A stretch of 64,000 bases of DNA, from the sequence record PZ386967.1; one strand, 5' to 3'. Under the pieces are notes generated by a model. The model made no database searches, was not told the origin of the DNA, and saw nothing but the letters and a program-made list of their open reading frames with translations. Source of the stretch: a phage. Position 1 is the stretch's first letter; each line of letters begins with the position of its first letter. A program made the position numbers and the translations under genes. Positions 4,488-58,400 of this stretch are shown here, one piece after another.

Positions 4488-4801
4488 GACAATACTCCTT
4501 TCAGAGCTAAAACGGAAAGCACACCAATAATCAACCATGTCGGGATAATTGGCTTGCAGTTCATGTGGGTTTCTCCACCTTCGATGTTCGGGCTTCCTTG
4601 TATAAGAACGTGTTCACAGGAAGCTCTGAACGTCATTACACAGCCCATCAACACAATTGGCCTGATATAATAACCCGTTTTAGTTTGCTTCACGATACAT
4701 GGAGAGGAGAAGCGCAGATATGGATCCCCTTTCCGGTAGCCTGTGATTGTGACCTTCTGCACTTCAGAAGGCACTTTTTGGCCAGGAAAATAAATTTTCA
4801 T
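4484..4801 (-). CDS. hypothetical protein with C-terminal transmembrane helix
   Basis: 105-aa ORF, ATG start, ATGA coupling on both sides; hydrophobic C-terminus. Confidence 0.45.
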
Positions 4802-5358: not shown

Positions 5359-5699
5359 TATGGTCTCCTCAACCATTCTAAAATCGGTACGTTCACAAAC
5401 CCTTTATGCCAGCGATGGGGTTTATGGCCTCTGTTGTGTTCGAGCAAACACGTATCCGGTGGGACACTGAAGTGGATGCCTTCGATGTCGTAGTAATGCC
5501 CATCAATCAGAGTATACACATGACCTTCGGTCTGACTGTAATGGATCTCTGCTTGGGGATACACGTGCTTCAGAAGTAGAGCAACCTGGTAACACTTCCC
5601 GTTCTTCCCCACGTACTCGACATCCACCTGTTGTGGAAACACATCTTTGATAAGGTTTATCAATCTCGTGATGTCATTTACGACAACCGAACGTTTCAT
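5358..5699 (-). CDS. hypothetical protein
   Basis: Start moved to ATG 5699 with GGAGAGG SD; 113 aa, His-rich. Confidence 0.45.
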
Positions 5700-8888: not shown

Positions 8889-10229
8889 TTATAGGCCAAG
8901 AGCCTTTTCAAGGTCATCAAGGTCTTCAGTGTAAAGATCGATGTCCTCTTTCTTACTTAATTCCTTGTGCTGTGCTTCAAGGTTCTCAATCTGCTTGAGT
9001 AGGCGCTCACGGGCATCCAGAGTAATAGACGACAGAGGCATCTTGAACAACTCGTCAAGATCACCACCAAAGTCCGGGTAGTCCTGCATGAACAGAGACT
9101 TCAGCACGTCAATCTTTTGGCGGAGATCAACACGCGTCGCCCATTCAATGAACACCGCCCGGTCACCCAGCTTGCGGATCCTGTCTGCCATGTCCTTCAA
9201 CAGATACTGGCGACGGTCTTCATACCGTGACAGGCGATAATTGAAGAACGGCAGCAACATGTCCCGCCAACCAGAATAACGATGAATGACCCCGTCTTCA
9301 TCCCAGGCCGTCCAAACAGGCTTGTTGGCTGAATACAACTTGAACATCTGCTCAACCTGATTATCATCCAGCTTGGACAGTTCGCCGCGCTTAAACACAA
9401 CCGTGATATCCCAGCCATCTTCCGTCGTGTCGTTGGCGTACTCGGTGAGGATACCTGCCTTGTACAGAGGCAGCAACACCTTGGTCTCATAGGTCTTGGC
9501 AAACCAACCCACTGGGACTTCGGTGATATGCAGGGTCGTGGCATTGACGCGACGGAAGATGCCGCGACTGTATGCTCTTCCTTCCTCAGTATAGCCTGTC
9601 TCTCCTTTGAAGCCGTTCCAGTACGGTTTTAAGTCTTTCGGGTCTTCGCCACGGAGAAGCGCTCTCAGGGCATTCAGCACGGACTTAACGCAATGACACG
9701 GGGTGTCGGTGGAATATCCGGTGCCGATACCATTGATCCCATTCACCAGGAACATGGGTAGGATGGGCAGAAAGAACTTCGGCTCCAGTCTTTCTTCACC
9801 AAGGTAGTTGTATTCCAAAATACCCTCATCCTCCTTGCGGAAGATCTTGCGGATAACGTCAGATACAGCGACGGATATGTATCGGGCAGATGAAGCATCA
9901 CGCCCCATGATAGAACCAAACTGGCCATCGCGGTCAAAGTACGGGATGTTGTTCGTGCCTGGGAACCCCTGAGCCATGTTCACGATAGTGCCGCTCATGT
10001 TCTCACCACCAGACTTGTAGTTGGTGCGAGCGGCGGCGAACATACCAAGGCGGTCAACAATCTCCTCCTTGTTGTACTCAAGAGCAGCGAAAAGGATCTT
10101 GCGCTGGCTTGGCTTGAGGCTGTCGATCAGCTGAGGGATTTGACGGATGCTGTTGACCACAGAAAACTGCTTATGGTCAGTGTTGACAAAGTCCGTTACA
10201 GTAATGCTCTTAGCAACCATCTTATTCAT
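8889..10229 (-). CDS. 52: DNA topoisomerase II medium subunit (GyrA-like, gp52-like)
   Basis: DSLKPSQRKILFAA matches the GyrA/ParC DNA-gate region; start moved to ATG 10229, overlapping the stop of the large-subunit gene. Confidence 0.8.
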   Translation of the reverse strand: MNKMVAKSITVTDFVNTDHKQFSVVNSIRQIPQLIDSLKPSQRKILFAALEYNKEEIVDRLGMFAAARTNYKSGGENMSGTIVNMAQGFPGTNNIPYFDRDGQFGSIMGRDASSARYISVAVSDVIRKIFRKEDEGILEYNYLGEERLEPKFFLPILPMFLVNGINGIGTGYSTDTPCHCVKSVLNALRALLRGEDPKDLKPYWNGFKGETGYTEEGRAYSRGIFRRVNATTLHITEVPVGWFAKTYETKVLLPLYKAGILTEYANDTTEDGWDITVVFKRGELSKLDDNQVEQMFKLYSANKPVWTAWDEDGVIHRYSGWRDMLLPFFNYRLSRYEDRRQYLLKDMADRIRKLGDRAVFIEWATRVDLRQKIDVLKSLFMQDYPDFGGDLDELFKMPLSSITLDARERLLKQIENLEAQHKELSKKEDIDLYTEDLDDLEKALGL

Positions 10230-12131
10230 CCTCAGTTTCAAACAGGCAAACATCGCTAAACCAGGTTTTACGGTAATCGGCAGCCTCATCACCGAAGCCA
10301 TTCTTCAGTGACTGTTGGTAGCCATCGTCCAGCGTGACCGTCGTAGTATACGCATCTAGGTTGTTTAGAATACGTTTGAAGTCTTCAGTGCTGTTACCAC
10401 CAAGACCTTTCAGATATTTCTTCTTCGTGATCTTCTTGGCATCAGGCGTCTTCAGGAACTCCTCATACTCGGCGTTGTTCATGAACTCATGCATCACCTT
10501 ACCACACCACACACGCATGTAAGGGGTGCGCAGGAGCTTCAGCCTGCCCTGACGGACATACTCCGGCCAGTAGGTGCAATACAGGGTGATCAACAACCCA
10601 CGGATGTGGATGCCGTCATCGTCCGCATCGGTAGCCACAACAGTCTGTGGGTAACGGGTGATATCAAGGGGCTGGCCTGGCACTGCGCCGCCATGGATCG
10701 TACACAGGTTCTTGAACTCTTCATTGTTCATCACCTTTGAGCGCGGGGCGTTCAGGCAGTTGATGAACTTACCACGAAGCGGGAACAACCCGATCTTCTT
10801 GGTGTCGCGGGCGTTCAGGATAGGATTGGAGGCACTATCACCCTCTGTCAGCAACAGGGAGCATCCGCTGCGGTCACCACGGGCGGTCGCCGGGTAATAC
10901 TTCTCAATCTCACGATAATCCCGCTTGCTGATGTCCTTCTTGGCCTTTTCAAACTCAGCATCATCCTGCTCATTGCGCAGGGAAGCCAGTTCTTTGCTCA
11001 GACCAGCTGTAACGAACTCAAGCGCCTTGCGGATCAGTTTATCACTGGGCTTGTACGACGTACCGAACTGGCTGACAGGAGTGGTCATGCGCTCCTTGGT
11101 CTGGCTGTCAAAGCGCGGGTTGTTGATGTCGGCAGCGATGAACAAGGACATGTGGTTCTTGATCATTGCTGGCTTCAGTTCGGTCTTGAACTTCTTCACC
11201 AGCTGGGGACGAATCGCTGCCACGATCTGGTCAGCAACATAATCAACGTGAGGACCACCGATGTGGGTGGCAATAGAGTTCACGTATGATGCGTGCATGA
11301 ACGTACCGGATGAAGGGGCTACAGCAACAGACCAATCCCCGGTTTCGTCAACAGCCGAACCAGCATGGAAGTAATCAACGAAGTGGCCAAAGCGGTCAAT
11401 CCGGATTTGCTTCCCGTTGAGAACAATCTTCAGGCGCGGGTTACACGCAGCCACTTCAAACGCGCGGCGATAGATCATCAGCAGGTTGTTCTGGTCAAGT
11501 CCTTTGACGCCCAGACGAGCATAGTCAGGGATCCAGGCGATGGATGTGCCAGGACTGTTCACGTTGCTGATGACTGGGTTAGATTTCTTGCTCATGTTGT
11601 CTTCAAACGTCTGAGTATAAGACTTCTTGCCGTCATTAGTCGTGACGCGGAACCATTTGGAGAACACGTTGACGAGGGACGCCCCTTCGCCATTCTGACC
11701 ACCGGACTTCTGGTTGTTGTACTCTTCGTCTTCGTCGTTGAAGTTCGATCCCGCATATAGAGAGCCGAACAACATTTCAGGAAGCCACTCGTTGGTGACG
11801 CCATGCTTGACCACAGGGATACCCCCGTTGTCAGCAACGATGATTTGACCGTTCATCGGGGAAACTGTGACGGTGATTTCCGTCAGGGATTTGCCCTCAG
11901 GGGTCTTGCTGTGTCAACACAGTTGGTGATGATTTCATCAAACTGTTTGATCAGCGCGGGGGAGTACTCAAAGTTGTCACGGAAGATGACTTTGTCCTTA
12001 GTTGGGTCATACACCCACACCGTCCCCACAGACGAACGAATACTGCCCAGATGACGCTCTGGGCGGAGTAGGATATGCTCAACGTGAGTGAGCTTCTTGT
12101 ACTTGCGTTCAATATCAATTTTGTTGGACAT
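10222..12131 (-). CDS. 39: DNA topoisomerase II large subunit (GyrB-like, gp39/gp60-like), interrupted by a frame change near 11886-11913
   Basis: N-terminal ORF 11883..12131 (EHILLRPERHLGS, DEIITNCVDTA = GHKL N-box) and ORF 10222..11856 (ADNGGIP, GEGASLVNVFS, LLTEGDSA Toprim) lie in different frames; the conserved strand KSLTEITVTVSP is readable only in the downstream frame upstream of its first Met. Confidence 0.8.
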
Positions 12132-12180
12132 CGGCCTATCCCGTCAATGGTAAACACACAAGATTATGTATGGGGTCGGC

Positions 12181-12762
12181 TTATAGACCAAATTTGCTAC
12201 GCCACTTTTCAACCTTGTGTTCAATAGCGTGCTCCACTTTAATGCGAGTGGCCATCAAAGAGGATCCATGGATCGCCCCTTCCCCACACCCCATGCGCGC
12301 AACATGCTTGATTAGGTCATTGACGAGTTGATCCAATCTGTCTTGACTGCGATAAGGCTGGTTGCACAACCGGATAATCCGGCCATGATAATGATGGATA
12401 AGATTCAGATGCTTTTGAGGATCACGATCAATCAGACGGAACCAGTCTTCTTCCAACAGATTAGAAGAAATATCGTTCACTGTCGCCATGTGGTTGATGA
12501 CAGAGTCGATCATTTCGGCCTTGTTCATAGAGCCGCGCATTTGGACGTCGTCATAATCCATGACGTACAGAAGGTCAATAGCAGAGATAATGACATCAGC
12601 AACTTCGCCATTCAACGGCTCAGAAGATACTATGCCATGAAACACATCAGACAGTTCACAGATCTCTTCACCTAGTTTGTTCAGAACAAACACAGGCGAG
12701 CGGTCTGGGGTATGAGCAGTGCAGTCATAAGAAGCGTCGACGATAGTGTGTAGAAATTTCAT
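12181..12762 (-). CDS. MazG-like nucleotide pyrophosphohydrolase
   Basis: LNKLGEEICEL...EVADVIISAIDL resembles the MazG EExxE/D motif; ATG with AAGGAA SD. Confidence 0.5.
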   Translation of the reverse strand: MKFLHTIVDASYDCTAHTPDRSPVFVLNKLGEEICELSDVFHGIVSSEPLNGEVADVIISAIDLLYVMDYDDVQMRGSMNKAEMIDSVINHMATVNDISSNLLEEDWFRLIDRDPQKHLNLIHHYHGRIIRLCNQPYRSQDRLDQLVNDLIKHVARMGCGEGAIHGSSLMATRIKVEHAIEHKVEKWRSKFGL

Positions 12763-44243: not shown

Positions 44244-44283
44244 ACTAAATACCCCTAGATGAAACGAACACATTTAGGGGTAT
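44244..44283 (+). promoter_or_regulatory. late-promoter-like motif ACTAAATAC plus 5' leader hairpin
   Basis: CTAAATA core, then inverted repeat ATACCCCTA / TAGGGGTAT whose 3' arm holds the only G-rich SD-like sequence before ATG 44289. Confidence 0.45.
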
Positions 44284-44288
44284 TTGAA

Positions 44289-47200
44289 ATGGCTAATAAA
44301 CCAACACAGCCTGTTTTCCCTCTCGGTCTGGTGGCTGAAGAGCAGTCTACTTTGGCTGGTGTCGTCAACACGGGTACGATTGAGCATGGACCAGATGCTG
44401 TCCTGACTTTACCCGAGGGTAATGCCAGCGCAGGACTCCCGTCTTCCGTTCGCTACAATGCCGACTCCGACGAATTTGAGGGCTTCTATGAAAATGGTGG
44501 ATGGTTGCCGCTGGGTGGCGGTGGTATCCGCTGGGAAGTCCTTCCGCATGCCTCTACGGTAATGCTCACTGAAGGGCGAGGCTATCTCATTAATAATACC
44601 ACAGGGGCATCTACAGTGGTTCTCCCTTCCCCTACGCGTATTGGGGATTCCGTTACTATTTGTGATGCTTATGGGAAATTTGCCACTTACCCATTGACCG
44701 TGTCTCCTTCTGGAAATAATTTGTATGGCTCCACTGAAGACATGGCTATAACAACTGATAACGTATCAGCAACGTTCACTTGGTCTGGACCTGAACAAGG
44801 TTGGATTATTACATCCGGCGTCGGTCTTGGCCAAGGCCGTGTCTACAGTCGTGAAATCTTTACAAAAATTTTGGCGTCTGAAACAAGTACTGTCACTCTC
44901 AATACTCCACCAACAATCGTGGACGTGTATGCTGACGGAAAACGCCTTGCGGAATCCAAATATTCACTAGATGGGAATGTAATCACTTTCAGTCCTTCTT
45001 TGCCAGCCAGCACAGAACTTCAGGTGATTGAATATACTCCTATTCAATTGGGTAATGGCGGTGGTTCTAGTTCTTCTACGATTACTTGGGTCTATAATGG
45101 GGGTTCAGCGATTGGCGGTGAAACCGAAATCACGTTGGACGTCGTTGTTGATGATGTTCCGGCCATTGATATAAACGGAAGTCGTCAGTATAAAAATCTG
45201 GGATTCACATTCGATCCATTAACCAGTAAAATCACTCTGGCGCAAGAACTGGAACCAGAAGATGAAGTTGTTGTAATCATCAATGGAACACCAAACATCT
45301 ATAATCAAATTGATCATACTTTGCGGGAAGTGGCTCGTGTAACCAATGTTAAAGATACAGAGGTCGTTTATTTTAGTGTTGGTGCTGTGCTAAGCGGGTA
45401 TAAAGTTATCTATGATAAAGTAACACAGAGATCATATTTTATTCCAGAGCTACCGACTGGAACCACGGCAGTCAGCCTTAGTTCTTCGGCTGTACTTGTG
45501 CATTCTGCTGGTAGTGTTGATCTGGGCGCATTAGCCGTATCTCGTGAGGAGTATGTGACCTTACCTGGTTCATTCGATACAGGTGTAACTGTTAATACCA
45601 AGAATGAGTTGGTTGTGAGTAACGATATTAAATATCGTTGGGATGGTTCTGTACCCAAAGTAGTCCCTCCAGAATCTACCCCATTGGGTACAGGAGGTGT
45701 TGGTCCAGGGGCATGGCTTGTAGTTGGTGTTGTTGGATTAGAGCAACGTTTAGCCTCCTGGAAAGGTTCTTCTCTTATTGATTCCGGTAGTCTGTCTCTT
45801 TACAAAAAGAGCGGTGTATTCGGTGATGGTGGGAATGTATCCGATAAATATCAGGTTGTTCTACATTCAGATGGGTTCTGGTACAAGTACAATGGGACAC
45901 TACCTGTTAGTTATGGTGCTGCCCCAGACTCTTCTTGGACTAACGTTGGTAAGCTAACAGGGTTTAATGAACACTCACCTGAGAATTTTGGTGCAATCCC
46001 CAATGACCCTAGTTTTGACTGTTTACCTGCTATAAAACTAGCTATAGCCACAGGTACATTAAATCTGAATGGGAATTCTACCTACCACGTAACGGATGAG
46101 GTTGTTATACCTTCTTACTTACGTGGGAATCTAAACGGGGCAACAATTAAAGCAATTGGCTCCGTATGGCCTACGTTAAAAGCTGTTGTACGCGTTAGTA
46201 AATTTCCTGTCGGTACAGCAACAGTGGATGTGGCTAATACAGAGAATCAAGTGCGAGGATTACGCTTAATCGGTAGCTTAAACGTAGACTGTGCAGATAT
46301 TGCATCATATGGTTTTTATGCACGTCTTCTGTGTGCAGAATCTGAGATGGGTAGCATCTATGCATATAATGCTAATAGATATGGCATTGTAATGTTTGCT
46401 TGCTGGTATTTTCAAATGGGCACTCTCCATGCAAACAACTGTGCAAGGGGTATGGCATTAGGTTATTCAACAGAAGGTGAGCAAGGGGATACCTATGTGA
46501 ATGCTACACACTTCCCTCACATTAGTGCATGGGGTACTGATAAGTCTACGGGACTAGGTTATGACCCAATCACGGATGATGCGAGTAAATATACAATAGG
46601 TGCTGGTATTATCTTAGGTCGTGGTTTGTCTACCAGTGTTGGTGTGATTTGCTCTGAGAATACGGCAGGTGCTGGGGTAGTAACAATGGACCCTGCTGCG
46701 TGGGACATTGGGGTCATGTACTGTGAGGGTAATAGTAAAGACTTTACTCAAGAGGGTGAACCCAAGGTGTCATTGCTGTCATCCAAGGCCAACAGTGAAA
46801 GTCATACGCTTACCATCTCCACACTCCACCTTTCCGCAGGTTGTGGCATTTTAACCAGAAGCAATCAAGAGCGTGTGCTAATCAGAAGTCTATATCGCTT
46901 TGATAACGCAAAAACCTTCCACTCTTACTGCACAGCAGACACAGTAGAGGTTGGTAGCAGCAACTACTATGTACTTAACGGGCATAATTACAATGCACCT
47001 GCTGCACTTATTAAGGAACCGCTCAATGTAGACTTTGTGCGTTCAGGGTTGACTTTAAGTGAGTGGACATCTACAGTTATCGGTCATTTTGCTGGTAGTA
47101 CAGCAGAACAACAGCTTTATGTTAAGCTCCCAGCAAGTCCCAGCGGCCTAGATTTACAGATAGATAGTGAGGATGGGACGGAATATATCACTGTAACTGG

Positions 47201-47342
47201 TACAGATTTTAAAGTCTCTCTAACTAAGAAAAGATTGCCTAGTAAACTGTATGAGATAAGGATTGGTGGGGTGTCTACAGTAGCTGTTACCGATTGTTCT
47301 ATTCTAGTCAGAAGTAAAAAAGGTGATTGGTATTACTGGTAG
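44289..47342 (+). CDS. tailspike protein with N-terminal adaptor region and internal conserved anchor module (TSP4-like)
   Basis: 1017 aa from ATG 44289; internal about 150-aa module (VVYFSVGAVLSGYKVIYDK...HSAGSVDLGALAVSREEYVTLPGSFDTGVTVNTKNELVV...) shared with three downstream genes; Asn/Gly-rich C-terminal half consistent with a beta-helix. Confidence 0.65.
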   Translation: MANKPTQPVFPLGLVAEEQSTLAGVVNTGTIEHGPDAVLTLPEGNASAGLPSSVRYNADSDEFEGFYENGGWLPLGGGGIRWEVLPHASTVMLTEGRGYLINNTTGASTVVLPSPTRIGDSVTICDAYGKFATYPLTVSPSGNNLYGSTEDMAITTDNVSATFTWSGPEQGWIITSGVGLGQGRVYSREIFTKILASETSTVTLNTPPTIVDVYADGKRLAESKYSLDGNVITFSPSLPASTELQVIEYTPIQLGNGGGSSSSTITWVYNGGSAIGGETEITLDVVVDDVPAIDINGSRQYKNLGFTFDPLTSKITLAQELEPEDEVVVIINGTPNIYNQIDHTLREVARVTNVKDTEVVYFSVGAVLSGYKVIYDKVTQRSYFIPELPTGTTAVSLSSSAVLVHSAGSVDLGALAVSREEYVTLPGSFDTGVTVNTKNELVVSNDIKYRWDGSVPKVVPPESTPLGTGGVGPGAWLVVGVVGLEQRLASWKGSSLIDSGSLSLYKKSGVFGDGGNVSDKYQVVLHSDGFWYKYNGTLPVSYGAAPDSSWTNVGKLTGFNEHSPENFGAIPNDPSFDCLPAIKLAIATGTLNLNGNSTYHVTDEVVIPSYLRGNLNGATIKAIGSVWPTLKAVVRVSKFPVGTATVDVANTENQVRGLRLIGSLNVDCADIASYGFYARLLCAESEMGSIYAYNANRYGIVMFACWYFQMGTLHANNCARGMALGYSTEGEQGDTYVNATHFPHISAWGTDKSTGLGYDPITDDASKYTIGAGIILGRGLSTSVGVICSENTAGAGVVTMDPAAWDIGVMYCEGNSKDFTQEGEPKVSLLSSKANSESHTLTISTLHLSAGCGILTRSNQERVLIRSLYRFDNAKTFHSYCTADTVEVGSSNYYVLNGHNYNAPAALIKEPLNVDFVRSGLTLSEWTSTVIGHFAGSTAEQQLYVKLPASPSGLDLQIDSEDGTEYITVTGTDFKVSLTKKRLPSKLYEIRIGGVSTVAVTDCSILVRSKKGDWYYW

Positions 47343-47350
47343 TATAATAA

Positions 47351-47380
47351 AAAGCCCCCAATTTTGGGGGCTTTTATTAT
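47351..47380 (+). terminator. rho-independent terminator
   Basis: Hairpin AAAGCCCCC-AATTTT-GGGGGCTTT followed by a T-run. Confidence 0.6.
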
Positions 47381-47414
47381 ATAGAGTTTACTGTTTTCAT
47401 TACCCTGATTGATA
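47374..47414 (+). repeat. about 40-nt intergenic repeat, copy 1
   Basis: TATATAGAGTTTACTGTTTTCATTACCCTGATTGATA; near-identical copy at 55206..55246. Confidence 0.6.
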
Positions 47415-47597
47415 ATGCTGTTGGCTCTCTCGGGTTGTCATCAAACGGGTATAAGAACTTTATAGGTGATATCAATGATGGGTCAGCGTATTTTTATTTC
47501 ACCAACATAGATGGATCAAGAATATCGGGGTCGTCTGTTTATGATGGGTGGGGTGATGTTGGTATACATTTTGAAATGTGTCTGGAATAGGAGTGTC

Positions 47598-47696
47598 AAA
47601 CCCCGCTTTGGCGGGGTTCTTATTATACCTTTGTTCATAAATTTGATTAGTTCAGACTAAATACTCCATATTGGTCATCCTTTATGGGGTATTATC
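47598..47696 (+). repeat. duplicated tailspike upstream cassette, copy 1 (hairpin, late-promoter-like motif, leader hairpin)
   Basis: About 85% identical by eye to 50575..50675; includes GACTAAATAC at 47655-47664 and leader hairpin ATACTCCATA / TATGGGGTAT at 47661-47692. Confidence 0.6.
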
Positions 47697-50126: not shown

Positions 50127-50574
50127 ATAATTGATATTATGCTTCATGGTGATTGTGGGTGATTCACCCACGATTACTTTTAGGTACTACAGTTGATAAT
50201 TCAGATTGATACATTGGATTGGCAGGTGCGTGTAATACTGCACTTGAATTTTGATACATAAATCCGGCACCCTCCCTCACCCTCAACGCGCCCAATTGCC
50301 CCCATAGGAGGCTCATTACCTCCTTGTGGGCTTTGTTGTTTTTGTGGCTGCTGTTGCTGACTACATTCTATGTATGGATGTATCTCATCATACTAAGCAT
50401 TATCTAAGAGCCATCCTATGATACGACCCCATTGGGATTCCTAACTTCACAACTACGGTAATATTATGAATTAATCAGGTGAACTGCTCCTAGTCAGACT
50501 GGAGGAACGATTGAAGACTCTGTTTGATAATCAGGCAAGGGATAGATAGGATCGTGGTTTTGGAGAGTAAAATC

Positions 50575-50675
50575 AAAACCCCTCTTCGGCGGGTTCTTGT
50601 TATACCTTTGTTCATAAATTTATTAGTTCAGACTAAATACCCCATATTGGCAAATCCTCTATGGGGTATCTTCAA
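50575..50675 (+). repeat. duplicated tailspike upstream cassette, copy 2
   Basis: Contains GACTAAATAC at 50631-50640 and perfect 10-bp leader hairpin ATACCCCATA / TATGGGGTAT at 50637-50669; the ORF-track ATG at 50661 lies inside the hairpin arm. Confidence 0.6.
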
Positions 50676-53180
50676 ATGACCAGAAACGTCGAGAGCATCT
50701 TTGGAGCGGTCGTAACAGCTCCGCACCAGATTCCATACACTTACACAGCAACGGGTGGAGAGAAGTTTATCTCCCTCCCTTTCTACCCTGTCACTGGTAT
50801 AGTCACAATCAACGGTGGCATGCAAGTTCCGTTAGACAACTTTGAAATCGATGGAAATACGTTGAATCTCGGACGCGCATTATCCAAAGGTGACGTTGTG
50901 TTCTGTCTGTTTGATAAGATTCTGTCTCCAGAAGATTATAAAACCGGGGTTCGAATCTATAAGTTTCAGGCTATAGGAGGTGAAACCGAGTTCACTCCTG
51001 ATTACACATATTATGGAGTCCAATCTCTTTATATCGGTGGTGAGTACAAAACACCCGAAATTGAATATTCCTATGACAGCACGACAGGGAAAGTGTCTTT
51101 ACAAACTGCGCTGACTGCAGGCGTTTGGGTAGTCGCTGAAATGTCTGTTAAACAACCGAATATCAGTCCGTTGTTTGACCGAAGTATTCAAGAAATCGCT
51201 CGTGCAACTAACGTTAAGGACAGTGAAGTAATTCTTAGCACTGACACTACGCAATTATTGAATGGTAAAAAGATTGTCTACTCTGTTAGTGAGCAGAAGT
51301 CATATGGGTTACCTTCATTACCCTCTAACATATACATCTCATCCGTTAGTAATGGGCAGTTAACGTACAATCCAGGTAATATTACTGTTACTTTGTTACC
51401 TACTCATCAAGAGTCGAATACCAGAGAATTGTGGAGACGTTTACTTGCAGAAGCAGGTTTATCTCTCGTTGCTGGTAGCTTTGAAGAAGGTGCAACAGTT
51501 AATAGTGAAACGGATGCTGTTTGGCACATCGCTGGTGGTCAGTGCTATACGTGGGAGGGTGCACTACCTAAAGTTGTCCCCGCTGACTCAACCACTACAT
51601 CAACCGGTGGTGTTGGAACAGGTGCATGGGTTAGTGTTGGTGATGCTTCATTGAAGTCAGAATTGGCTAAACCTACAGGAGCAGGTTTTTCAGGTTTTGA
51701 TAAGTCAATTGATTACGAAACTGGTACTGTTGGCAATGCGCTTAAGAAAATTATAAATGTCAACCCGGATATGTATCCATCATTACAGGATGCGATTGAT
51801 GCTGCGGCAGCTTTAACAGGTTTAGAACATGCACCAAGTAGTGCTGCTAACCATCCTGACTGGCTACAACCTAACACTGTAAGCAAAGTTATCAGGCTGA
51901 ATGGGAAGAAATATCCTATCAGTACGACACTACACATTCACGGAGATGTTAGCATTGATGCTGGTTTCGGTGGGGTATACCTGACAGATGACTTCATAGC
52001 AGACTCATCTGGTTATGCTGTAAAGTGTGATAAAGGTACAGGTAATCAATACGCTGGGCACATTAGCAATCTTTTAATTGATGCCCGTGCAAAAACTGTT
52101 AATGGATTTAAAATATCTGATGGTTATGCCAACAAGTTAGATGGCATTTACGTAGCCAATATTGATGGTCATGGCATCCATATTGCTGGCGGTATGGGTG
52201 TGCACCTATTGAAGTTTTATGCTGTTGGTGTATTAAAACCAACTAATCCACTCAGCACAGCCCACATTGTTGAAGGTAGCGATCATCAGGTTAGTATGGG
52301 TGAAGGTCGTTATTTCCGATTTGGTACCTGGGTTCGTGGTGGTGGCAATAACAGAATTAGTAAGGTGCACAACTGGGGCATGTATGACGATACAGTCACT
52401 GACCAGAACTCAAGGATGAAATGCTGCTTTGTTGTACAGAACTCAATAAACAATTCCTTCAATCAATGTTTTGCAGATTCTCCATCAAAATGGGACTACG
52501 CGAAAGCTAATTTAGATCCTGTAGATGGTTATATTAACGGCGGGATTGGCTTTTTTATTGATGGTGGAGCCACCGGTAATACGTTCTCTCAATGCCAGAC
52601 GTTTGTGAATATGAATGCGTTTAATGACGCAGGGCTATCTTCATATACGGCATCACTAATGCCATTCGCCGTTGGTAGTATCAACTGTTCATTCATTGAG
52701 TGTGAAAACTCAAACTCACCAGCATGGGTGGCAAGGCTGATAACTCATATTTACTCTGCGGACCAGACATTTACTAACATACTTGCAGCTAAGAATTTTG
52801 TTGGTATAGAGTATGATATGGTTTGCAATAGTACAATTTTCAGGAAAAATGTTGGAGTTCCTGTATTGGTAAGAAATCCAAAGTTCGAGACGCCAACAGC
52901 AAGTTATGCGCCTGACTTTTCAGACGCATCTTACATCGCAGCTACAGTTACAGGAGATGTAACAATAACTCCAGCAGTATTAACAAATACACTAATTGGT
53001 TATGTTGAGGTTCTTTTGGCTGTCTATTCAACAACATCTAAAACAATAACATTTGGTGCAAATGTTAAATTAGCAAGCAATACCCCATCTTTGACAGCAG
53101 CTGGAACACAAGTTTTTAGGTTGTCAACAACTGATGAAGGAGCAACCTGGTTTTGTAAGTTCGAGAGTGCTTACTCGTAA
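50676..53180 (+). CDS. tailspike protein with N-terminal adaptor region and internal anchor module (TSP2-like)
   Basis: Start moved to ATG 50676; conserved module at about residues 170-330, including TSTGGVGTGAWVSVGDASL identical to the 47697 gene. Confidence 0.6.
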   Translation: MTRNVESIFGAVVTAPHQIPYTYTATGGEKFISLPFYPVTGIVTINGGMQVPLDNFEIDGNTLNLGRALSKGDVVFCLFDKILSPEDYKTGVRIYKFQAIGGETEFTPDYTYYGVQSLYIGGEYKTPEIEYSYDSTTGKVSLQTALTAGVWVVAEMSVKQPNISPLFDRSIQEIARATNVKDSEVILSTDTTQLLNGKKIVYSVSEQKSYGLPSLPSNIYISSVSNGQLTYNPGNITVTLLPTHQESNTRELWRRLLAEAGLSLVAGSFEEGATVNSETDAVWHIAGGQCYTWEGALPKVVPADSTTTSTGGVGTGAWVSVGDASLKSELAKPTGAGFSGFDKSIDYETGTVGNALKKIINVNPDMYPSLQDAIDAAAALTGLEHAPSSAANHPDWLQPNTVSKVIRLNGKKYPISTTLHIHGDVSIDAGFGGVYLTDDFIADSSGYAVKCDKGTGNQYAGHISNLLIDARAKTVNGFKISDGYANKLDGIYVANIDGHGIHIAGGMGVHLLKFYAVGVLKPTNPLSTAHIVEGSDHQVSMGEGRYFRFGTWVRGGGNNRISKVHNWGMYDDTVTDQNSRMKCCFVVQNSINNSFNQCFADSPSKWDYAKANLDPVDGYINGGIGFFIDGGATGNTFSQCQTFVNMNAFNDAGLSSYTASLMPFAVGSINCSFIECENSNSPAWVARLITHIYSADQTFTNILAAKNFVGIEYDMVCNSTIFRKNVGVPVLVRNPKFETPTASYAPDFSDASYIAATVTGDVTITPAVLTNTLIGYVEVLLAVYSTTSKTITFGANVKLASNTPSLTAAGTQVFRLSTTDEGATWFCKFESAYS

Positions 53181-53184
53181 AACT

Positions 53185-53210
53185 AACCCCGCTTCGGCGG
53201 GGTTTCTTAG
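53185..53210 (+). terminator. terminator-like hairpin
   Basis: Hairpin AACCCCGC-TTCG-GCGGGGTT followed by TTCTTAG. Confidence 0.45.
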
Positions 53211-53228
53211 AAAAACAAAGAGGTCGTT

Positions 53229-55145
53229 ATGAACGAAATGTTCTCACAAGGTGGTAAAGGCTCTACTGGTATTCTTACCAATAAGCAAGCCATTGCCCGT
53301 AAGTTTGGTGTTAAACAGAATGAGGTAGTCTACTTTGCTGTAGGTGTAGACTTAGGTGGTTACAAAGTAATTTATGATAAGGCTACTCAGCGTGCCTATT
53401 CCTTGCCTGCTGACATTGGTTCAGGGGTGACTGCTGTAAGTCTTGGTACTAATGCCGTACTTGTACATTCAGCTGGTTCCGTAGATCTTGGGGAATTAGC
53501 CGTATCTCGTGAAGAATACGTTACATTGTCTGGGTCGTTTGACAATGGTGCTACACTTAATGTTAAAAATGAATTGCTTACCCATACAACAGGTAAGTAT
53601 CGCTGGGATGGTGAGTTACCTAAAACCGTTTCTTCTGGCTCAACTCCTGAAAGTGCTGGAGGTACTGGGTTAGACAAGTGGGTTAGTGTTGGTGATGCAG
53701 CCTTGAGAATCAATCTTGCATCTGATGATGGCGCTGGTCTGGTCGGATTTAAGTCACCTCTGGCCAACTCCATTAAGCGAACACTACATGATAAAAATAA
53801 AGACCTGGTGTCAGTCAAGGACTTCGGGGCTGTTGGCGACGGTGTGACCGATGATACCGCCGCGTTTCAGGCAGCAATAGATTCGAAAAAGAGTTTATAC
53901 ATACCGGATGGTATTTATCTTATAAGCTCTACTTTAATCATAACTGCCACTGATAGTCTATGTATTGTTGGTAATAGTTTTGGACATGTTAATGACCAAA
54001 CAACAGGTTCAGTAATTAAGTTTACCGGGTTAGCGTCACCCGCCATTCGGGTTCAAGGTGGTGCGATAGGAGCTAAGATTTCTGGACTTTTCTTGGATAT
54101 TCAGGACTCATCGTCTGATGGTTTTGATTTCGGAGGGGCTTGGTACCTAAAACTTCAAGATTGCGTTGTCAGAAACGCCCGGTACGGTGTTTATTTACAT
54201 TACGACGCCCCAGACTATTTTTCCGGGGTGGCTGAGCTAACTTCATGCTATTTCGCTAAATGTGCAAATGGTGTAAAAACGTCAAAAGTAGATATCAACG
54301 TAGTTAAAGTTGATAATTGTACTTTCTTTGATGGTGTTAACGGTGTTCTTATCGGAGACTCAGGTACTGCAAGTAGTGTACGAAATTTCATAGTCAGAGA
54401 CTCTCTATTTGAAGCAAACACGGGCTATGACGTAGGTGTTGTCGCCGGGGGTGCACAGCAGTTACTGGTAGATGGTAACTACTTTGAAGAGAATACTGCT
54501 TCTTCTTTAGCCAGGGTATATGTTGCAGATGATAGTCACTCACCGCGTTCTTCTTCTGTTTCAATAACCAACAACACGTTTAGCAAAGATACGACAGGCG
54601 ATCTTATTTTCCTGTCCGGTATTTCCGGTGTTCTTGTTAAACAAAACTGGTCAGCATTTGGGGGTATAGGTTTTGTAAGGGCTATTAATATCGACAATTA
54701 TGAGATAGATAGATGCTCTACCGTATCTGGAGCAACAGCCTGTAATGTTGTTATAGATAACGTCTTACAAGTACCTGACACTTCTGTTAATAAGATTTAT
54801 ATTAACAAGGCCCAAGAATACGCATTTATTGGGTCTACCGTCGCAAAAAGGTCGAGTGCATGTACACGGGCAATGATCAATTTTAATGGAATTTCGGGGT
54901 CGTCAGTGTATGCGGATGGAGCAACTGTAACTAAAACCGGGACCGGTAAATATACCGTCAACCTATCTAATACTATGCCCTCCTCTGCTTATGCTGTTTT
55001 ATGCAGTGTTGGCAATACCACTAGCGGAGGGAAATTAGTAATTAATGTCGTAAGTACATCCCCTGACTCTTTTAACTTAGAAGTTTTTGACCTTTCTGGA
55101 TCGTATCAAGATTCAGGATACATATCTGCCGCAGTTGTTATGTAA
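53229..55145 (+). CDS. tailspike protein with N-terminal anchor module and beta-helix-like C-terminus (TSP3-like)
   Basis: 638 aa; N-terminal module about 65% identical to that of the 47697 gene; C-terminal repeats typical of right-handed beta-helix (pectate-lyase-like) folds. Confidence 0.65.
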   Translation: MNEMFSQGGKGSTGILTNKQAIARKFGVKQNEVVYFAVGVDLGGYKVIYDKATQRAYSLPADIGSGVTAVSLGTNAVLVHSAGSVDLGELAVSREEYVTLSGSFDNGATLNVKNELLTHTTGKYRWDGELPKTVSSGSTPESAGGTGLDKWVSVGDAALRINLASDDGAGLVGFKSPLANSIKRTLHDKNKDLVSVKDFGAVGDGVTDDTAAFQAAIDSKKSLYIPDGIYLISSTLIITATDSLCIVGNSFGHVNDQTTGSVIKFTGLASPAIRVQGGAIGAKISGLFLDIQDSSSDGFDFGGAWYLKLQDCVVRNARYGVYLHYDAPDYFSGVAELTSCYFAKCANGVKTSKVDINVVKVDNCTFFDGVNGVLIGDSGTASSVRNFIVRDSLFEANTGYDVGVVAGGAQQLLVDGNYFEENTASSLARVYVADDSHSPRSSSVSITNNTFSKDTTGDLIFLSGISGVLVKQNWSAFGGIGFVRAINIDNYEIDRCSTVSGATACNVVIDNVLQVPDTSVNKIYINKAQEYAFIGSTVAKRSSACTRAMINFNGISGSSVYADGATVTKTGTGKYTVNLSNTMPSSAYAVLCSVGNTTSGGKLVINVVSTSPDSFNLEVFDLSGSYQDSGYISAAVVM

Positions 55146-55162
55146 GTAATAATCACTTAAAA

Positions 55163-55191
55163 ACAACCCCACTTCTATGGGGTTGTTTTTA
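55163..55191 (+). terminator. rho-independent terminator
   Basis: Hairpin AACAACCCCA-CTTCTA-TGGGGTTGTT followed by TTTTT. Confidence 0.55.
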
Positions 55192-55205
55192 CTTATTAAT
55201 AATAC

Positions 55206-55246
55206 TTTTTATATAGAGTTTACTGTTTGCATTACCCTAATCGATA
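55206..55246 (+). repeat. about 40-nt intergenic repeat, copy 2
   Basis: TATATAGAGTTTACTGTTTGCATTACCCTAATCGATA; about 36 of 39 positions identical to 47374..47414. Confidence 0.6.
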
Positions 55247-55404
55247 CAGCAGTTAAGGTAATAGTCTGACCTGATATATTAAACATACCTAATTGAATAC
55301 CATCTACCATGAATGGCAGAGGTCTCGAATCCATGACCATAACCACAGAAAGATAATCAAAGCCCCTTCGGGCTTATTTCTTTCTATTCCTCGGTTGGTT
55401 GTAT

Positions 55405-55413
55405 ACTAAATAT
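55405..55413 (+). promoter_or_regulatory. late-promoter-like motif ACTAAATAT
   Basis: 42 nt upstream of ATG 55447, which has a GGAG SD. Confidence 0.4.
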
Positions 55414-55446
55414 CTCTATAATGGCACCTATCGATGGAGCATCAAA

Positions 55447-58400
55447 ATGCAAGAAATGAACCTCAACCGCCGCCCATATTGGGATGACTGGAATCCAGAG
55501 AAGCGTTTTTCGCGCATCCTATTCCGTCCGGCACCTATCAAAGTTCAGACGCGTGAACTGAACCAGATGCAGACCATCTTCCAGGATCAACTGGAGAAAC
55601 TTGGCAACCATCTGTTCAAAGACGGTTCAATGGTTATCCCCGGCGGCCTAACGATCACCAACACTGCTGTGTCCATGAAGTTCACTCTGGCTGGTGGTAG
55701 TGAGTTCACTGATCTGGAAGGTATCTCCGAACTCTATGTTCTGGGCAAGGACAACAATGCGAAAGCACGCGTCCTGTCCTTGGAACGTTATCCAGCTGAG
55801 CCGGATACAATGTATGCCATCTTAGAGATGACTGAGAGTGGTAGTTCAGACGGTTTCGAAGCTGGTGACAATCTATACTTCAACACCTATGACGTGAACG
55901 ATAACTTCATCCGTGTCGGCTATGGTGTGGCCGATACTGTTGGCGGTTCGATTGTCGCTCGCATGACAAAGGGTGTTTATTTCGTTCGTGGTATGTTCCT
56001 GGATGTTGAACCAACCACTTTGATCGTAGACAACGCATCGAACTCTACATCTCACCGCATTGGCTTCAAAGTTACAGAAACAATCGTGACTGAAGCAGAA
56101 GATGAAAGTCTGTTCTCCAATACTCAGGGTACTCCGAACTCTAAAGCCCCTGGTGCGCATCGCCTGCGCGTCGACCTCGTGTTGTCTCGCTACGGTTATG
56201 ATGAAGAAGTGGCCGACTTCGTCGAACTGGCGAAGGTGAAAGACGGTCGCATTCAGTCCATGGTCACCCAGTCAACATACAACATCCTCGAAGACGCCAT
56301 GGCTCAGCGTACCTATGAGACCAATGGTGACTACAACGTCTCTACTCACCAGATCGACCTACGCGAACATCTGAAACAGAACAACAACGGTGGCGTATAC
56401 ACTCCGGCTGAAGGTGGTGATGAAAGCAAATTCGTGGCTGTTATGAAGCCAGGCATTTCCTACGTTCGTGGTCGTCGTATCGAAAACCTCGGCGAAGAGC
56501 TGGTCATAATTGACAAAGCCCGTGACACTGATATCCTGAACAACAACCCTGTGGCTGTTTCGACTGGCAACTATCTGGTGTCCAAGAACTCCAAAGGGGT
56601 TCCGGTTGTCTCCCGCACAATCCGCTACAAGTTCCTGAACGCATCCAGCGATGTGCAGGCCACCGCCCTGCTGATTTCGGCAGAGCGCTCCGGTACTGAA
56701 TTCCGTCTGTATATGCGCGACCTGGTTGTGACTGGGGACATGGGTACTGTTACCAAAGTTGCATACGAAGAAAGCGGCACAACCATGTTCTCCTGCGAAC
56801 TGGAGTCCAATCAGTTCAGCCAGAGTTCAGCAATTGACCTGATCTTCCCTCTGCCTGTATTTGGTGTGAAGACTCTAGCACCTACAGGCACCATCGACAT
56901 CAACTACACCGTCCTGCGGTCAAACAAGATCACGTTGAACGCCGCTGGTGCAGGCTCAATCTCTGCTCCTCTGGGTTACAGCTTCAGCCCTGAGTTTTCA
57001 CTGTACTCCGCAGCGAAGGCAGATGGCACTGCAGCTCAGTTTGATATCTCTTCGGGACTGTCCCTGGCTGGTACTCCGGTTGGTTCAGCACTGCAGATTT
57101 CCCTGGGCGCGGGGTATGCCAACCAGTCTATCAACCTGTTGGCATTGATGGTCCGCACCACAGCGACGATCAAGACCAAGACTGTTACCGAAGCCACCGA
57201 GACTGTGACGTTTACTGCGGCGGCCAGCGCACAACTTGGGAACCATGATGGTTACAAGCTGATCAGCGTGAAGAACGCAAATGGCGCTGACGTCACCTCG
57301 AACTTCACTCTGGACGGTGGTCAACGCGATGCGGCATACTACCTTTCTAACCTCATATCGTCCACAGGAGCCATTTCAGGGACGTTCACGGTGGTGTATC
57401 AGTATTTCGCTCACAGCTCTGGTGATTTCTTCACAGCGGACTCCTATTCGTCCATCAACTACCCAGACATCCCGAACTATGTTTCATCCAGTTCTGGTAC
57501 TGTGTATGGATTGGCCGACAGTCTGGATTTCCGTCCCAAGATCACCAGCGGAGCGTCTGACACGGACATGGTTCGTCCGAACACCGCGATCATCCTAGAT
57601 GCAGAGTACTATCTGCCTCGTATTGATGCTGTGTATCTGGCAGACAACGGCGTGTTCAACGTTGCTCGTGGTGTGAGTTCCAACAACCTGGCTTCCCCTG
57701 CGATCCCAGACAACGGCATGCGCCTGTATGAATTGATGATCCCACCATACACGGCCAACATTGACGACATCCAGATTCGTACTATCGACAACCGCCGCTA
57801 CACGATGCGCGATATCGGTAAACTGGAGACCCGTATCTCCAATGTCGAATATTACACCTCACTGTCTCAGCTGGAATCCTCGGCGATGTCACAACAGGTG
57901 TTCGATCCAATTACTGGTAACCCGCGCTTCAAGAACGGTATCGCAGCAGACCCGTTCAAAGACTTCCGTCTGATCGACGATTTGTCTGCAGACTGGGTGG
58001 GTTCAATCGACACTGACAATGGTCGCCTACGCCCGTTTGTTCAGCAGAACGCGATTGACCTGACGCCAGTCGGTTGGAACAACGTTCAGGATGGCATGGT
58101 TGTATGCAACTACACCCGTGAGATCTCTGTCCGCCAGGACTATGCAACCACGACCATCAACGTGAACCCGTATGCGGTGTTCAACTGGGAAGGCTTCTTG
58201 AAGCTGAACCCGACTACTGATTACTGGTTTGAGAACTACTATGTCACCCCACGTGTGATCAACGAAACGATCAACACCCGTGGTGCGATCAAAGAAGGTT
58301 CTGTGTATGGCACATGGCGTACTGTGTCTGTGTCTGAGCGTGTGTGGGAACCGCATGGTGCAGGTGGTGTATGGTGGGGCTATCGCTACCGCACGACTGT

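What the first reader, a model, noticed from the sequence alone, without database searches (positions are those of the whole stretch)
55206..55246. A 40-nt element repeated downstream of two tailspike terminators
TATATAGAGTTTACTGTTT(T/G)CATTACCCT(G/A)AT(T/C)GATA occurs right after the terminators of the 44289 gene (47374-47414) and the 53229 gene (55206-55246), and nowhere else in the window. Together with the upstream cassette, each tailspike gene is bracketed by repeats, a signature of modular gene cassettes.
Basis: seen in the sequence. Interest (0 to 1): 0.4.

Follow-up and report, generated by a model that had tools for sequence, protein, structure and literature searches.

The report
Gene relic flanking swapped tailspike cassettes
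The repeated 40-base element is the leftover tail end of a gene from an unrelated group of phages, dragged in next to imported tailspike genes; it marks where host-range cassettes were spliced in and is probably not a working signal.

Summary
The repeat is real: a 37-nt core at 47378-47414 and 55210-55246 (34/37 identical; 49 nt at 86%), twice only, directly after two strong bidirectional terminators. It is not a dedicated signal. On the minus strand it is the stop codon plus the last 14 codons (site 1) or 35 codons (site 2) of a decayed gene, "gene X" (phrog_17779). Gene X is intact (208 aa) only in N4-like Gamaleyavirus podophages. There it always lies immediately downstream of, and convergent with, tailspike gene gp63.1. 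The window comes from an Agtrevirus-like myophage. Its relative A221 shares one 2,662-nt block (93% identity) with Gamaleyavirus nithesis: tailspike, terminator and the last ~91 codons of gene X. So the relic arrived as the 3' flank of a transferred tailspike cassette and was then shortened by deletions. Close relatives lack it at one site or the other, so it is dispensable. Homology between relatives resumes at the element's left edge (site 1) or switches inside it (site 2), so it marks the 3' boundary of cassette exchange and probably served as a passive homology patch. Modest interest.

The parts
47344..47380 (.). Bidirectional intrinsic terminator of the 1027-aa tailspike gene (44259-47342). 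The hairpin is AAAAAGCCCCC-AATT-GGGGGCTTTTT with flanking A and T runs.
   Evidence: Folds at -20 kcal/mol, z -3.1. Together with the element it is 89% identical over 56 nt to the gp63.1 terminator plus relic of Gamaleyavirus St11Ph5.
47377..47422 (-). Gene X relic, site 1. It comprises the stop codon (complement of 47377-47379) plus the last 14 codons (...TALSIRVMKTVNSI*).
   Evidence: Translation. It is 84-91% nt identical to the 3' ends of four intact genes (pSb-1, UE-M3, Bp4, nithesis) and has DNA hits to many Gamaleyavirus phages. The protein-level match alone is weak (HMM E 0.28). AV101 carries the same 14-codon relic.
55158..55191 (.). Bidirectional intrinsic terminator of the 638-aa tailspike gene (53229-55145).
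   Evidence: Terminator-like on both strands. Folds at -19.2 kcal/mol, z -7.4. The hairpin, spacer and relic (55165-55316) are 85.6% identical to pSb-1.
55209..55316 (-). Gene X relic, site 2. It comprises the stop codon plus the last 35 codons (PFMVDGIQLGMFNISGQTITLTAVSIRVMQTVNSI*), corresponding to aa 174-208 of the 208-aa protein.
   Evidence: PHROG phrog_17779 E 4.5e-16. tblastn 97% identity to P0001. Family HMM E 3.5e-18.
44259..47342 (+). Tailspike gene upstream of site 1, a three-part mosaic. The N-terminal 496 aa are 93% identical to AV101 and A221. The receptor-binding part (45922-47341) is 88.5% nt identical to the tail fibre of Kayfunavirus TM1, and that homology ends exactly at the stop codon.
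53180..55145 (+). Tailspike cassette upstream of site 2. The upstream hairpin plus the first ~160 codons (53180-53709) are 85.5% nt identical to the gp63.1 locus of Gamaleyavirus pSb-1. The receptor-binding part is found only in YX22 and dw-ec.
50368..50556 (+). A third relic from the same Gamaleyavirus neighbourhood. It is the promoter/leader and first ~31 codons of gp63, the gene that lies beyond gene X in the donor. It is now dead, because codon 3 is TAA.
   Evidence: 86-89% nt identity to pSb-1, UE-M3 and St11Ph5; alignment A4.

Best explanation
The element is a pseudogene relic. It is the stop codon and last 14-35 codons, read on the minus strand, of 'gene X' (phrog_17779). Gene X encodes a 208-aa protein whose N-terminus resembles a capsid-decoration (head-fibre) protein and whose C-terminus is a TNF-like knob. 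The 37-nt core covers the stop codon and the last ~12 codons, which the AlphaFold model places in the knob's last beta-strand (E192-205). Gene X is intact only in N4-like Gamaleyavirus podophages, and in related Schitoviridae such as Ithacavirus B2. In every Gamaleyavirus examined it lies immediately downstream of tailspike gene gp63.1, convergent with it and sharing its bidirectional terminator. Agtrevirus-like myophages, including the one this window comes from, acquired gp63.1-type tailspike cassettes together with the terminator and the adjoining 3' part of gene X. The fragment cannot make the protein, and it has since been whittled down by deletions from its 5' side. What remains is the piece that abuts the terminator. 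Two tailspike sites in this genome carry such a relic, hence the '40-nt repeat'.

Shown: identity of the sequence, synteny in the donors, a contiguous transferred block in a close relative, a series of differently shortened forms, and dispensability. Inferred: the relic has no autonomous function. Its only likely role is passive, as a short patch of identity shared with other tailspike loci at which the downstream crossover of later tailspike swaps can resolve.
For: (1) The minus-strand ORFs end ...TALSIRVMKTVNSI* and ...TAVSIRVMQTVNSI*. pSb-1 gp17 (208 aa) ends ...TAVSVRVMQTVNSI*, and its 3' end plus terminator aligns to window 55165-55316 at 85.6%.

(2) The site-2 relic hits phrog_17779 at E 4.5e-16 and a family HMM at E 3.5e-18.

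(3) tblastn finds full-length genes only in ~70-kb podophages. Ackermannviridae carry only unannotated 3' fragments.

(4) In Gamaleyavirus UE-M3, Bp4, nithesis, PD205, ZQ2, EC1-UPM and St11Ph5 the order is always gp66, gp63.1, terminator, convergent gene X (or its relic), gp63.

(5) A221 and nithesis share one 2,662-nt block at 93.4% identity. It runs from 48 nt upstream of the tailspike, through the terminator, into the last ~91 codons of gene X. RPN242 shares 2,082 nt at 95.5%.

(6) The relics form a series of shortened forms, all anchored on the 3' end: 85 codons (A221, RPN242), 81 (LHE287), 74 (YX22 site 1), 35 (window and YX22 site 2, CAU_YEP3), 14 (window site 1, AV101). There are signs of decay: frameshifts in SKML-39 and fGh-Ecl02, and a lost stop codon in LHE287.

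(7) Differences between relics and intact genes fall mainly at third codon positions, e.g. 21 of 26 for A221 against pSb-1. The sequence therefore diverged as coding DNA.

(8) AV101 lacks a relic at site 2 and A221 lacks one at site 1, although their backbones are ~96% identical to the window.

(9) Breakpoints: window and AV101 are unrelated to the left of 47377 and nearly identical to the right. Window and CAU_YEP3 have 15 mismatches in 55206-55293 but only 2 in 55294-55460.

(10) Other relics of the same donor neighbourhood are in the window at 50368-50556 and 53180-53709.

(11) Fold of the intact protein: AlphaFold2 mean pLDDT 79, with the C-terminal domain matching the Sf6 and HS1 tail-needle knobs and TNF-like lectins. 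The N-terminal 47 aa match phage B2 decoration protein gp45, PDB 9d82 (E 6.9e-8; PMC11654681).
Against: Site 1 retains only 14 codons. At protein level the match is not significant on its own (E 0.28), so its assignment rests on nucleotide identity and on the shared terminator context.

The receptor-binding domains of the two tailspikes next to the relics are not found in any Gamaleyavirus in the database. Co-transfer is therefore demonstrated in the relative A221, not for the present genes of this window.

Every independent truncation, in both phage families, keeps at least ~28 nt next to the terminator. This could mean that those bases contribute to terminator function. I regard it as expected if deletions that reach the terminator are selected against, but I did not test it.

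Third-position bias cannot distinguish the minus-strand frame from the overlapping plus-strand frame, because their wobble positions coincide.

No expression data are available.
Confidence: 0.88

Rival explanations
1. The element is a cis-acting signal kept by selection. Candidates are a promoter for what lies downstream, an operator, or an extension of the terminator.
For: It always abuts a terminator, and its first ~28 nt survive every independent deletion seen. Copy 1 contains a weak sigma-70-like match, TTTACT-18-GATAAT, 9 of 12.
Against: The number of promoter-like sites in the region equals the shuffled expectation (27 against 29.4), and copy 2 does not score. The element has no stable structure on either strand: z is +1.25 and +0.36 on the plus strand, -2.2 and -0.8 on the minus strand. 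No Rfam family reaches threshold. It is missing from one site or the other in close relatives, and from most Ackermannviridae whose tailspike genes have the same native upstream region. Its conservation pattern is that of coding sequence.
Confidence: 0.05
2. The minus-strand ORFs (47377-47475, 32 aa; 55209-55346, 45 aa) are functional small proteins that share a C-terminal motif.
For: Both are open, with TTG or GTG starts, and both end in the same 14 residues. One relative has an annotated 47-aa CDS on its relic.
Against: The N-terminal parts are unrelated to each other. There is no Shine-Dalgarno-like sequence before either start (read). ORF length and start are not conserved among relatives, which carry 14 to 85 codons, frameshifts or a lost stop. 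What is retained is a fragment of the C-terminal end of the jelly-roll (the model's last strand at site 1, the last two at site 2) and would not fold alone. Upstream on that strand lies a terminator hairpin or another gene's promoter region.
Confidence: 0.03
3. The repeat is the remnant of a plus-strand gene. The plus frame through copy 1 is open for 71 codons (47378-47590) and ends 8 nt before a terminator hairpin, like the 3' end of a displaced tailspike gene.
For: Open frame YIEFTV...HFEMCLE*. The hairpin at 47599-47618 follows it.
Against: tblastn with this frame finds only AV101, where it is broken by deletions (alignment A1). In copy 2 the same frame stops after 19 codons. The homologous sequence in Gamaleyavirus is an intact 208-aa minus-strand gene with a confident fold. 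The segment 47423-47598 could still be a plus-strand remnant of something else, but that segment is not the repeated element.
Confidence: 0.03
4. The element is a relic as described, but the two copies arose by duplication inside this genome lineage, for example by duplication of a tailspike cassette, and not by separate acquisitions.
For: Tailspike genes of this family are paralogous and recombine with each other (PMC11414711). The YX22 site-1 relic and the window/YX22 site-2 relic are 92% identical over 106 nt, closer to each other than either is to A221.
Against: In the window the two copies have different terminators: site 1 is St11Ph5-type and site 2 is pSb-1-type. The 45-nt site-1 relic shows its highest identity among the four intact genes compared to UE-M3, 91%, while the site-2 relic resembles the LHE287 and YX22 relics at 91-92%. 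The two copies share only 49 nt.
Confidence: 0.15

Closest known systems
Conserved flanking motifs of receptor-binding-protein genes proposed as recombination hotspots, in particular 'motif three', a 20-nt terminator motif downstream of RBP genes in Gamaleya-, Kutter- and Justusliebigviruses (Pas et al. 2023, Virol J 20:174, PMC10408124)
   Same: Both are short sequences conserved across phage families, located just downstream of tailspike genes at the edge of the variable receptor-binding region. Both are compatible with a role as homology for cassette exchange. The window carries four copies of a 20-nt hairpin (47599, 50577, 53185, 55165, D3), probably the same motif.
   Different: The 40-nt element is not the hairpin. 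It lies beyond the hairpin, has no structure of its own, and is a fragment of coding sequence from a neighbouring gene. It is far more restricted: 35 phage records, only Gamaleyavirus and Agtrevirus-like phages. I could not see the published logo, so equating D3 with motif three is an inference.
Gene X family: phrog_17779, e.g. Shigella phage pSb-1 gp17 (AHB79435.1), Escherichia phage Bp4 orf14, UE-M3 'tail needle knob', Shigella phage B2 gp46
   Same: The element is homologous to the 3' end of these genes, at nucleotide level for both copies and at protein level for site 2. It occupies the same position relative to a tailspike gene and its terminator.
   Different: These genes are intact (about 204-212 aa) and presumably functional. 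The window holds only 14 and 35 terminal codons, with no plausible start or expression signals.
Horizontal exchange of tailspike receptor-binding modules between Ackermannviridae and podophages (Det7/P22, CBA120/G7C; PMC8432352, PMC10791037, PMC11414711)
   Same: The phenomenon is the same: mosaic tailspike genes with a conserved N-terminal anchor and swapped C-terminal modules. The window's 1027-aa tailspike has a receptor-binding part 88.5% nt identical to that of a Kayfunavirus.
   Different: Published work concentrates on the 5' (N-terminal domain) recombination site and on protein domains. Here the evidence lies in non-coding flanks: whole-cassette transfer including the terminator and part of the next gene, which also gives the direction of transfer (podophage to myophage) for those flanks.

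Membership tests
phrog_17779 / gene X (decoration-like N-terminus plus TNF-like knob) | Significant sequence match to the family profile | tested here: met
   Site 2: PHROG E 4.5e-16 and own HMM E 3.5e-18. Site 1: protein-level E 0.28 only, but 84-91% nt identity to the 3' ends of four intact genes and DNA hits at E 1e-11 to 8e-14 that include the terminator.
phrog_17779 / gene X (decoration-like N-terminus plus TNF-like knob) | Intact ORF of about 200-210 aa covering both domains | tested here: not met
   Only aa 195-208 (site 1) and aa 174-208 (site 2) are present. These are therefore relics, not members in the functional sense.
phrog_17779 / gene X (decoration-like N-terminus plus TNF-like knob) | Synteny: immediately downstream of a tailspike or tail-fibre gene, on the opposite strand, sharing a bidirectional terminator | tested here: met
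   The window has this arrangement at both sites. The same arrangement is seen in seven Gamaleyavirus genomes and in B2.
'Motif three' downstream terminator motif of RBP genes (PMC10408124) | 20-nt conserved G+C-rich hairpin predicted to act as a terminator | tested here: not met
   The element itself has no hairpin. The hairpins beside it (D3) fit the description, but the element is a separate, adjacent sequence.
Sigma-70-type promoter | Two hexamers with 16-18 nt spacing, present in both copies and above background | tested here: not met
   Only copy 1 gives a 9/12 match. Sites in the region number 27 against 29.4 expected.
Known structured RNA (Rfam 15) | Score at or above a family's gathering threshold | tested here: not met
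   There are only sub-threshold hits, all lying over the terminator hairpins.
Small protein-coding gene | ORF conserved in length and start among relatives, with a ribosome-binding site | tested here: not met
   The ORFs are 32 and 45 aa with unrelated N-termini. Relatives carry 14-85 codons, frameshifts or a lost stop. No Shine-Dalgarno-like sequence is seen.
Site-specific recombination site (att-like) or homing-endonuclease target | An associated recombinase or endonuclease gene and a defined cleavage or crossover core | not tested
   No such gene lies next to either copy among the ORFs of 43.5-56.5 kb. Crossover points differ between comparisons, as expected for general homologous recombination.

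The most novel reading that the evidence does not exclude
The relic of gene X, together with the shared terminator and the shared N-terminal anchor domain, is retained under selection as a cross-family 'landing pad'. The conserved anchor domain would be the 5' arm and the terminator plus the gene X end the 3' arm. With both arms, whole tailspike cassettes would be portable between N4-like podophages (Gamaleyavirus) and Agtrevirus-like myophages during co-infection, so the relic would directly promote host-range switching.
Probability: 0.2. Interest if true: 0.5.

Novelty: new member of a known kind. Interest (0 to 1): 0.3.

Why it matters
Tailspikes decide which bacterial surface sugars a phage can attack, and swapping them is how these phages change host range. 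The swap is usually inferred from protein domains. Here a non-coding scar shows three further things. Whole cassettes moved, carrying the terminator and part of the neighbouring gene. For those flanks the movement was from N4-like podophages into Ackermannviridae myophages. The downstream junctions of later exchanges lie at or inside the scar. For phage engineers this identifies a natural, dispensable 3' homology arm for tailspike replacement in Agtrevirus-like phages. For annotators it explains a recurrent unannotated conserved block, and the occasional spurious small 'protease' ORF, downstream of tailspike genes. It does not reveal a new mechanism.

Tried and rejected
(1) Promoter and terminator scans. 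The element itself is neither, and promoter-like sites are at background level.

(2) Rfam at E<=1. Only sub-threshold hits over the terminator hairpins.

(3) Folding the element on both strands. No meaningful structure.

(4) Plus-strand coding hypothesis. The 71-codon open frame through copy 1 has no relatives except a broken copy in AV101.

(5) Pfam on the intact gene. No family. The source labels 'protease' and 'tail needle knob' are unsupported or only fold-level.

(6) Looking for the donors of the two adjacent receptor-binding domains among Gamaleyavirus. Not found: one is Kayfunavirus-like, the other occurs only in two Ackermannviridae.

(7) Exact-pattern scan of IMG/VR found nothing. A protein-guided scan gave only 7 loci, none adding relic copies.

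(8) A scan of bacterial genomes gave only hits I read as chance-level.

(9) Searching for a further gene X remnant in the third long intergenic region (50127-50367). None was found by tblastn or HMM; a relic of the next donor gene, gp63, is there instead.

(10) Codon-position analysis to decide the coding strand. It is uninformative, because the wobble positions of the two candidate frames coincide (and direct reading).

(11) The origin of 47423-47598 stays unexplained.

Full report
OBSERVATION

The two copies differ at three positions. Ungapped similarity extends to 49 nt (47374-47422 / 55206-55254, 86%, D4). blastn-short and a protein-family HMM on the six-frame translation found no third copy.

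Each copy begins a few bases after a strong hairpin with flanking A and T runs:
- 47344-47380: -20 kcal/mol.
- 55158-55191: -19.2 kcal/mol, scored terminator-like on both strands.

These hairpins follow the tailspike genes 44259-47342 (1027 aa) and 53229-55145 (638 aa).

WHAT THE SEQUENCE IS

Read on the minus strand, both copies are the end of an open reading frame:
- Site 1: ...TALSIRVMKTVNSI*, ORF 47377-47475, 32 aa.
- Site 2...PFMVDGIQLGMFNISGQTITLTAVSIRVMQTVNSI*, ORF 55209-55346, 45 aa.

A megablast of the site-2 region hit ~72-kb N4-like podophages of the genus Gamaleyavirus as well as Ackermannviridae relatives. In Shigella phage pSb-1 the matching DNA is the terminator plus the 3' end of an intact 208-aa minus-strand gene, gp17, which ends ...TLTAVSVRVMQTVNSI*. 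I call this gene X.

It belongs to PHROG phrog_17779, of unknown function. The site-2 remnant hits that family at E 4.5e-16. There is no Pfam match. A family HMM built here gives E 3.5e-18 for site 2 and E 0.28 for site 1. Site 1 keeps only 14 codons. Its assignment rests on two things: 84-91% nucleotide identity to the 3' ends of four intact genes, and DNA hits that span the terminator and the element in many Gamaleyavirus genomes (89% over 56 nt to St11Ph5).

WHAT GENE X IS IN ITS HOME GENOMES

tblastn finds full-length copies only in ~70-kb podophages. The C-terminal ~150 aa also occur at the end of Aeromonas-phage collagen-like proteins and in some Klebsiella and Kayfunavirus podophages.

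An AlphaFold2 model from 21 homologues has mean pLDDT 79, above 84 for most of residues 55-208. It gives a jelly-roll whose best PDB matches are the Sf6 and HS1 tail-needle knobs, TNF-like lectins and PRD1 P5. The N-terminal 47 residues match the capsid decoration protein gp45 of Shigella phage B2 (PDB 9d82, profile E 6.9e-8). That protein is a 99-aa trimer on the capsid (PMC11654681). In B2 the gene X homologue gp46 lies directly next to gp45 and converges on the tail-fibre genes.

Gene X is therefore most likely a decoration or head-fibre-like protein with a TNF-like knob. This is an inference from fold and neighbourhood. The 37-nt core covers the stop codon and the last ~12 codons, which the model places in the knob's last beta-strand (E192-205).

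SYNTENY

The order is the same in every Gamaleyavirus examined (UE-M3, Bp4, nithesis, PD205, ZQ2, EC1-UPM, St11Ph5). It runs gp66 (tailspike), gp63.1 (tailspike), terminator, gene X on the opposite strand, then gp63, holin and so on. This is exactly the arrangement seen in the window: tailspike, bidirectional terminator, convergent remnant.

Several Gamaleyaviruses have themselves lost most of gene X through at least three different deletions: PD205/ZQ2, EC1-UPM and St11Ph5. Each keeps 28-105 nt of the 3' end.

HOW IT GOT HERE

The window's backbone is ~96% identical to the Agtrevirus-like E. coli phages A221, AV101 and LHE287 (Ackermannviridae, Aglimvirinae).

A221 shares one contiguous 2,662-nt block at 93.4% identity with Gamaleyavirus nithesis. 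The block runs from 48 nt upstream of the tailspike gene, through all 765 codons and the terminator, into the last ~91 codons of gene X. RPN242 shares 2,082 nt at 95.5%. This shows directly that a whole gp63.1 cassette, with its terminator and part of its neighbour, moved between the two phage families. Gene X is complete only on the podophage side, so for these flanks the direction was podophage to myophage.

The window holds further debris from the same donor neighbourhood:
- 53180-53709 (upstream hairpin plus the first ~160 codons of the 638-aa tailspike) is 85.5% identical to pSb-1.
- 50368-50556 is the promoter/leader and first ~31 codons of gp63, with codon 3 now TAA.

DECAY AND DISPENSABILITY

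Among Agtrevirus-like phages the remnant comes in several lengths, all anchored on the 3' end:

| Codons retained | Phage and site |
|---|---|
| 85 | A221, RPN242 |
| 81 | LHE287 (stop codon lost) |
| ~84-87 | SKML-39, fGh-Ecl02 (with frameshifts) |
| 74 | YX22 site 1 |
| 35 | window site 2, YX22 site 2, CAU_YEP3 |
| 14 | window site 1, AV101 |

Relative to A221, the window's site 2 lacks an internal stretch, with a short GAA microhomology at the junction (alignment A2).

AV101 has no remnant at site 2 and A221 has none at site 1. Only 35 of 50,697 phage records contain the element at all, whereas the native upstream region of Ackermannviridae tailspike genes matched 168 records. The element is therefore dispensable.

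Differences between remnants and intact genes are mostly at third codon positions (21 of 26 for A221 against pSb-1). The remnants thus diverged as coding DNA in different donors and were captured fairly recently.

DOES IT DO ANYTHING NOW?

I found no sign of an autonomous function.
- Promoter-like sites are at background level, and only copy 1 scores.
- The element is unstructured.
- No Rfam family reaches threshold.
- The small ORFs have unrelated N-termini, no visible ribosome-binding site and no conservation of length.

What the data do show is that the element marks the downstream edge of the variable tailspike region. Window and AV101 are unrelated to the left of 47377 and nearly identical to the right. 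Window and CAU_YEP3 are unrelated to the left of 55206, differ at 15 positions in 55206-55293, and differ at only 2 positions in 55294-55460. That step in divergence inside the remnant is what a crossover there would leave. I therefore infer, but have not shown, that the remnant has served as a passive 3' homology patch in later tailspike swaps. The conserved N-terminal anchor domain would be the 5' patch, as the literature proposes (PMC8432352, PMC11414711).

COMPARISON WITH WHAT IS KNOWN

Horizontal exchange of tailspike modules between Ackermannviridae and podophages is well documented. Pas et al. (PMC10408124) described conserved DNA motifs flanking receptor-binding domains. These include a 20-nt terminator motif downstream of the gene in Gamaleya- and Kutterviruses, which they propose as a recombination hotspot. 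The four copies of the hairpin AACCCCGCTTCGGCGGGGTT in the window (D3) fit that description.

The 40-nt element is a different, adjacent sequence. I found no description of it or of gene X remnants in the papers searched. It is best filed as a new example of a known kind: a recombination scar or pseudogene fragment flanking horizontally exchanged tailspike cassettes.

'A signature of modular gene cassettes' is right in spirit. 'Each tailspike gene is bracketed by repeats' is not. The ~100-nt upstream cassette precedes the genes at 47697 and 50661, whereas the element follows the genes at 44259 and 53229. The element is a gene fragment, not a dedicated site.

CAVEATS

- Site 1 is short.
- The receptor-binding domains now adjacent to the two remnants are not found in any Gamaleyavirus in the database: one is Kayfunavirus-like, with homology ending exactly at the stop codon, and the other is known only from YX22 and dw-ec. 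Co-transfer is therefore demonstrated in a relative, not for these particular genes.
- The universal survival of the first ~28 nt next to the terminator could reflect a contribution to termination that I could not test.
- The segment 47423-47598 between the site-1 remnant and the next hairpin has no relatives other than AV101 and remains unexplained.

VERDICT

This is a real repeat with an ordinary explanation and modest added value. I put about 0.9 on the identification as a gene X remnant carried in with tailspike cassettes. I put about 0.5 on its having actually been used as a recombination arm.

Noticed in passing
window 50368-50556 (+): A dead fragment of another Gamaleyavirus gene: the promoter/leader and first ~31 codons of gp63, at 86-89% nt identity to pSb-1, UE-M3 and St11Ph5. 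Codon 3 has mutated to TAA. It sits in the long intergenic region between the second and third tailspike genes.
   Followed up: partly
window 47423-47598 (+): An orphan segment between the site-1 relic and the next hairpin. The plus frame through it is open for 71 codons and stops 8 nt before the hairpin at 47599-47618, like the 3' end of a displaced gene. Its only relative in the phage database is AV101, where two stretches are deleted.
   Followed up: partly
window 45922-47341 (+): The receptor-binding part of the 1027-aa tailspike is 88.5% nt identical over 1,420 nt to the tail-fibre gene of the T7-like Kayfunavirus phage TM1. The homology ends exactly at the stop codon, so this gene is a three-source mosaic.
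   Followed up: yes
window 47599-47618, 50577-50596, 53185-53204, 55165-55184: Four copies of a 20-nt G+C-rich hairpin (AACCCCGCTTCGGCGGGGTT and variants) before or after the tailspike genes. It is also present in Gamaleyavirus on both sides of gp63.1. It probably corresponds to the published 'motif three' terminator or recombination hotspot (PMC10408124).
   Followed up: partly
L004 (A221) 8969-11629 and L025 (nithesis) 118-2779: A single 2,662-nt block at 93.4% identity is shared between a ~153-kb myophage and a ~72-kb N4-like podophage. It covers a whole tailspike gene, its terminator and part of the next gene.
   Followed up: yes
L001 (YX22) 1644-4070 and L006 (UE-M3) 10281-12707: The receptor-binding part of a YX22 tailspike is 91% nt identical over 2,429 nt to gp66 of Gamaleyavirus UE-M3, annotated as an endosialidase. 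This is another cross-family exchange, ending about 10 nt after the stop codon.
   Followed up: no
L002 (pSb-1) 1977-3993: In pSb-1 the gp63.1-type tailspike appears split into three annotated ORFs, gp20, gp19 and gp18. The N-terminal anchor domain is in gp20 and continues past its stop (two tblastn pieces). This may be a disrupted or frameshifted tailspike, or a sequencing error.
   Followed up: no
L007 (B2) 4609-5621; also L010 and L011 about 3616-4594: In Ithacavirus-type phages the gene X homologue lies directly after the capsid decoration/head-fibre gene (B2 gp45) and shares its first ~40 residues. This suggests that gene X is a decoration-protein paralogue that gained a TNF-like knob.
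   Followed up: partly
L020 (fGh-Ecl02) 3057-3200: A 47-aa CDS annotated on the gene X relic as 'similar to protease of Salmonella enterica'. The 'protease' name attached to this family in NCBI records has no support from Pfam or from the predicted fold.
   Followed up: partly
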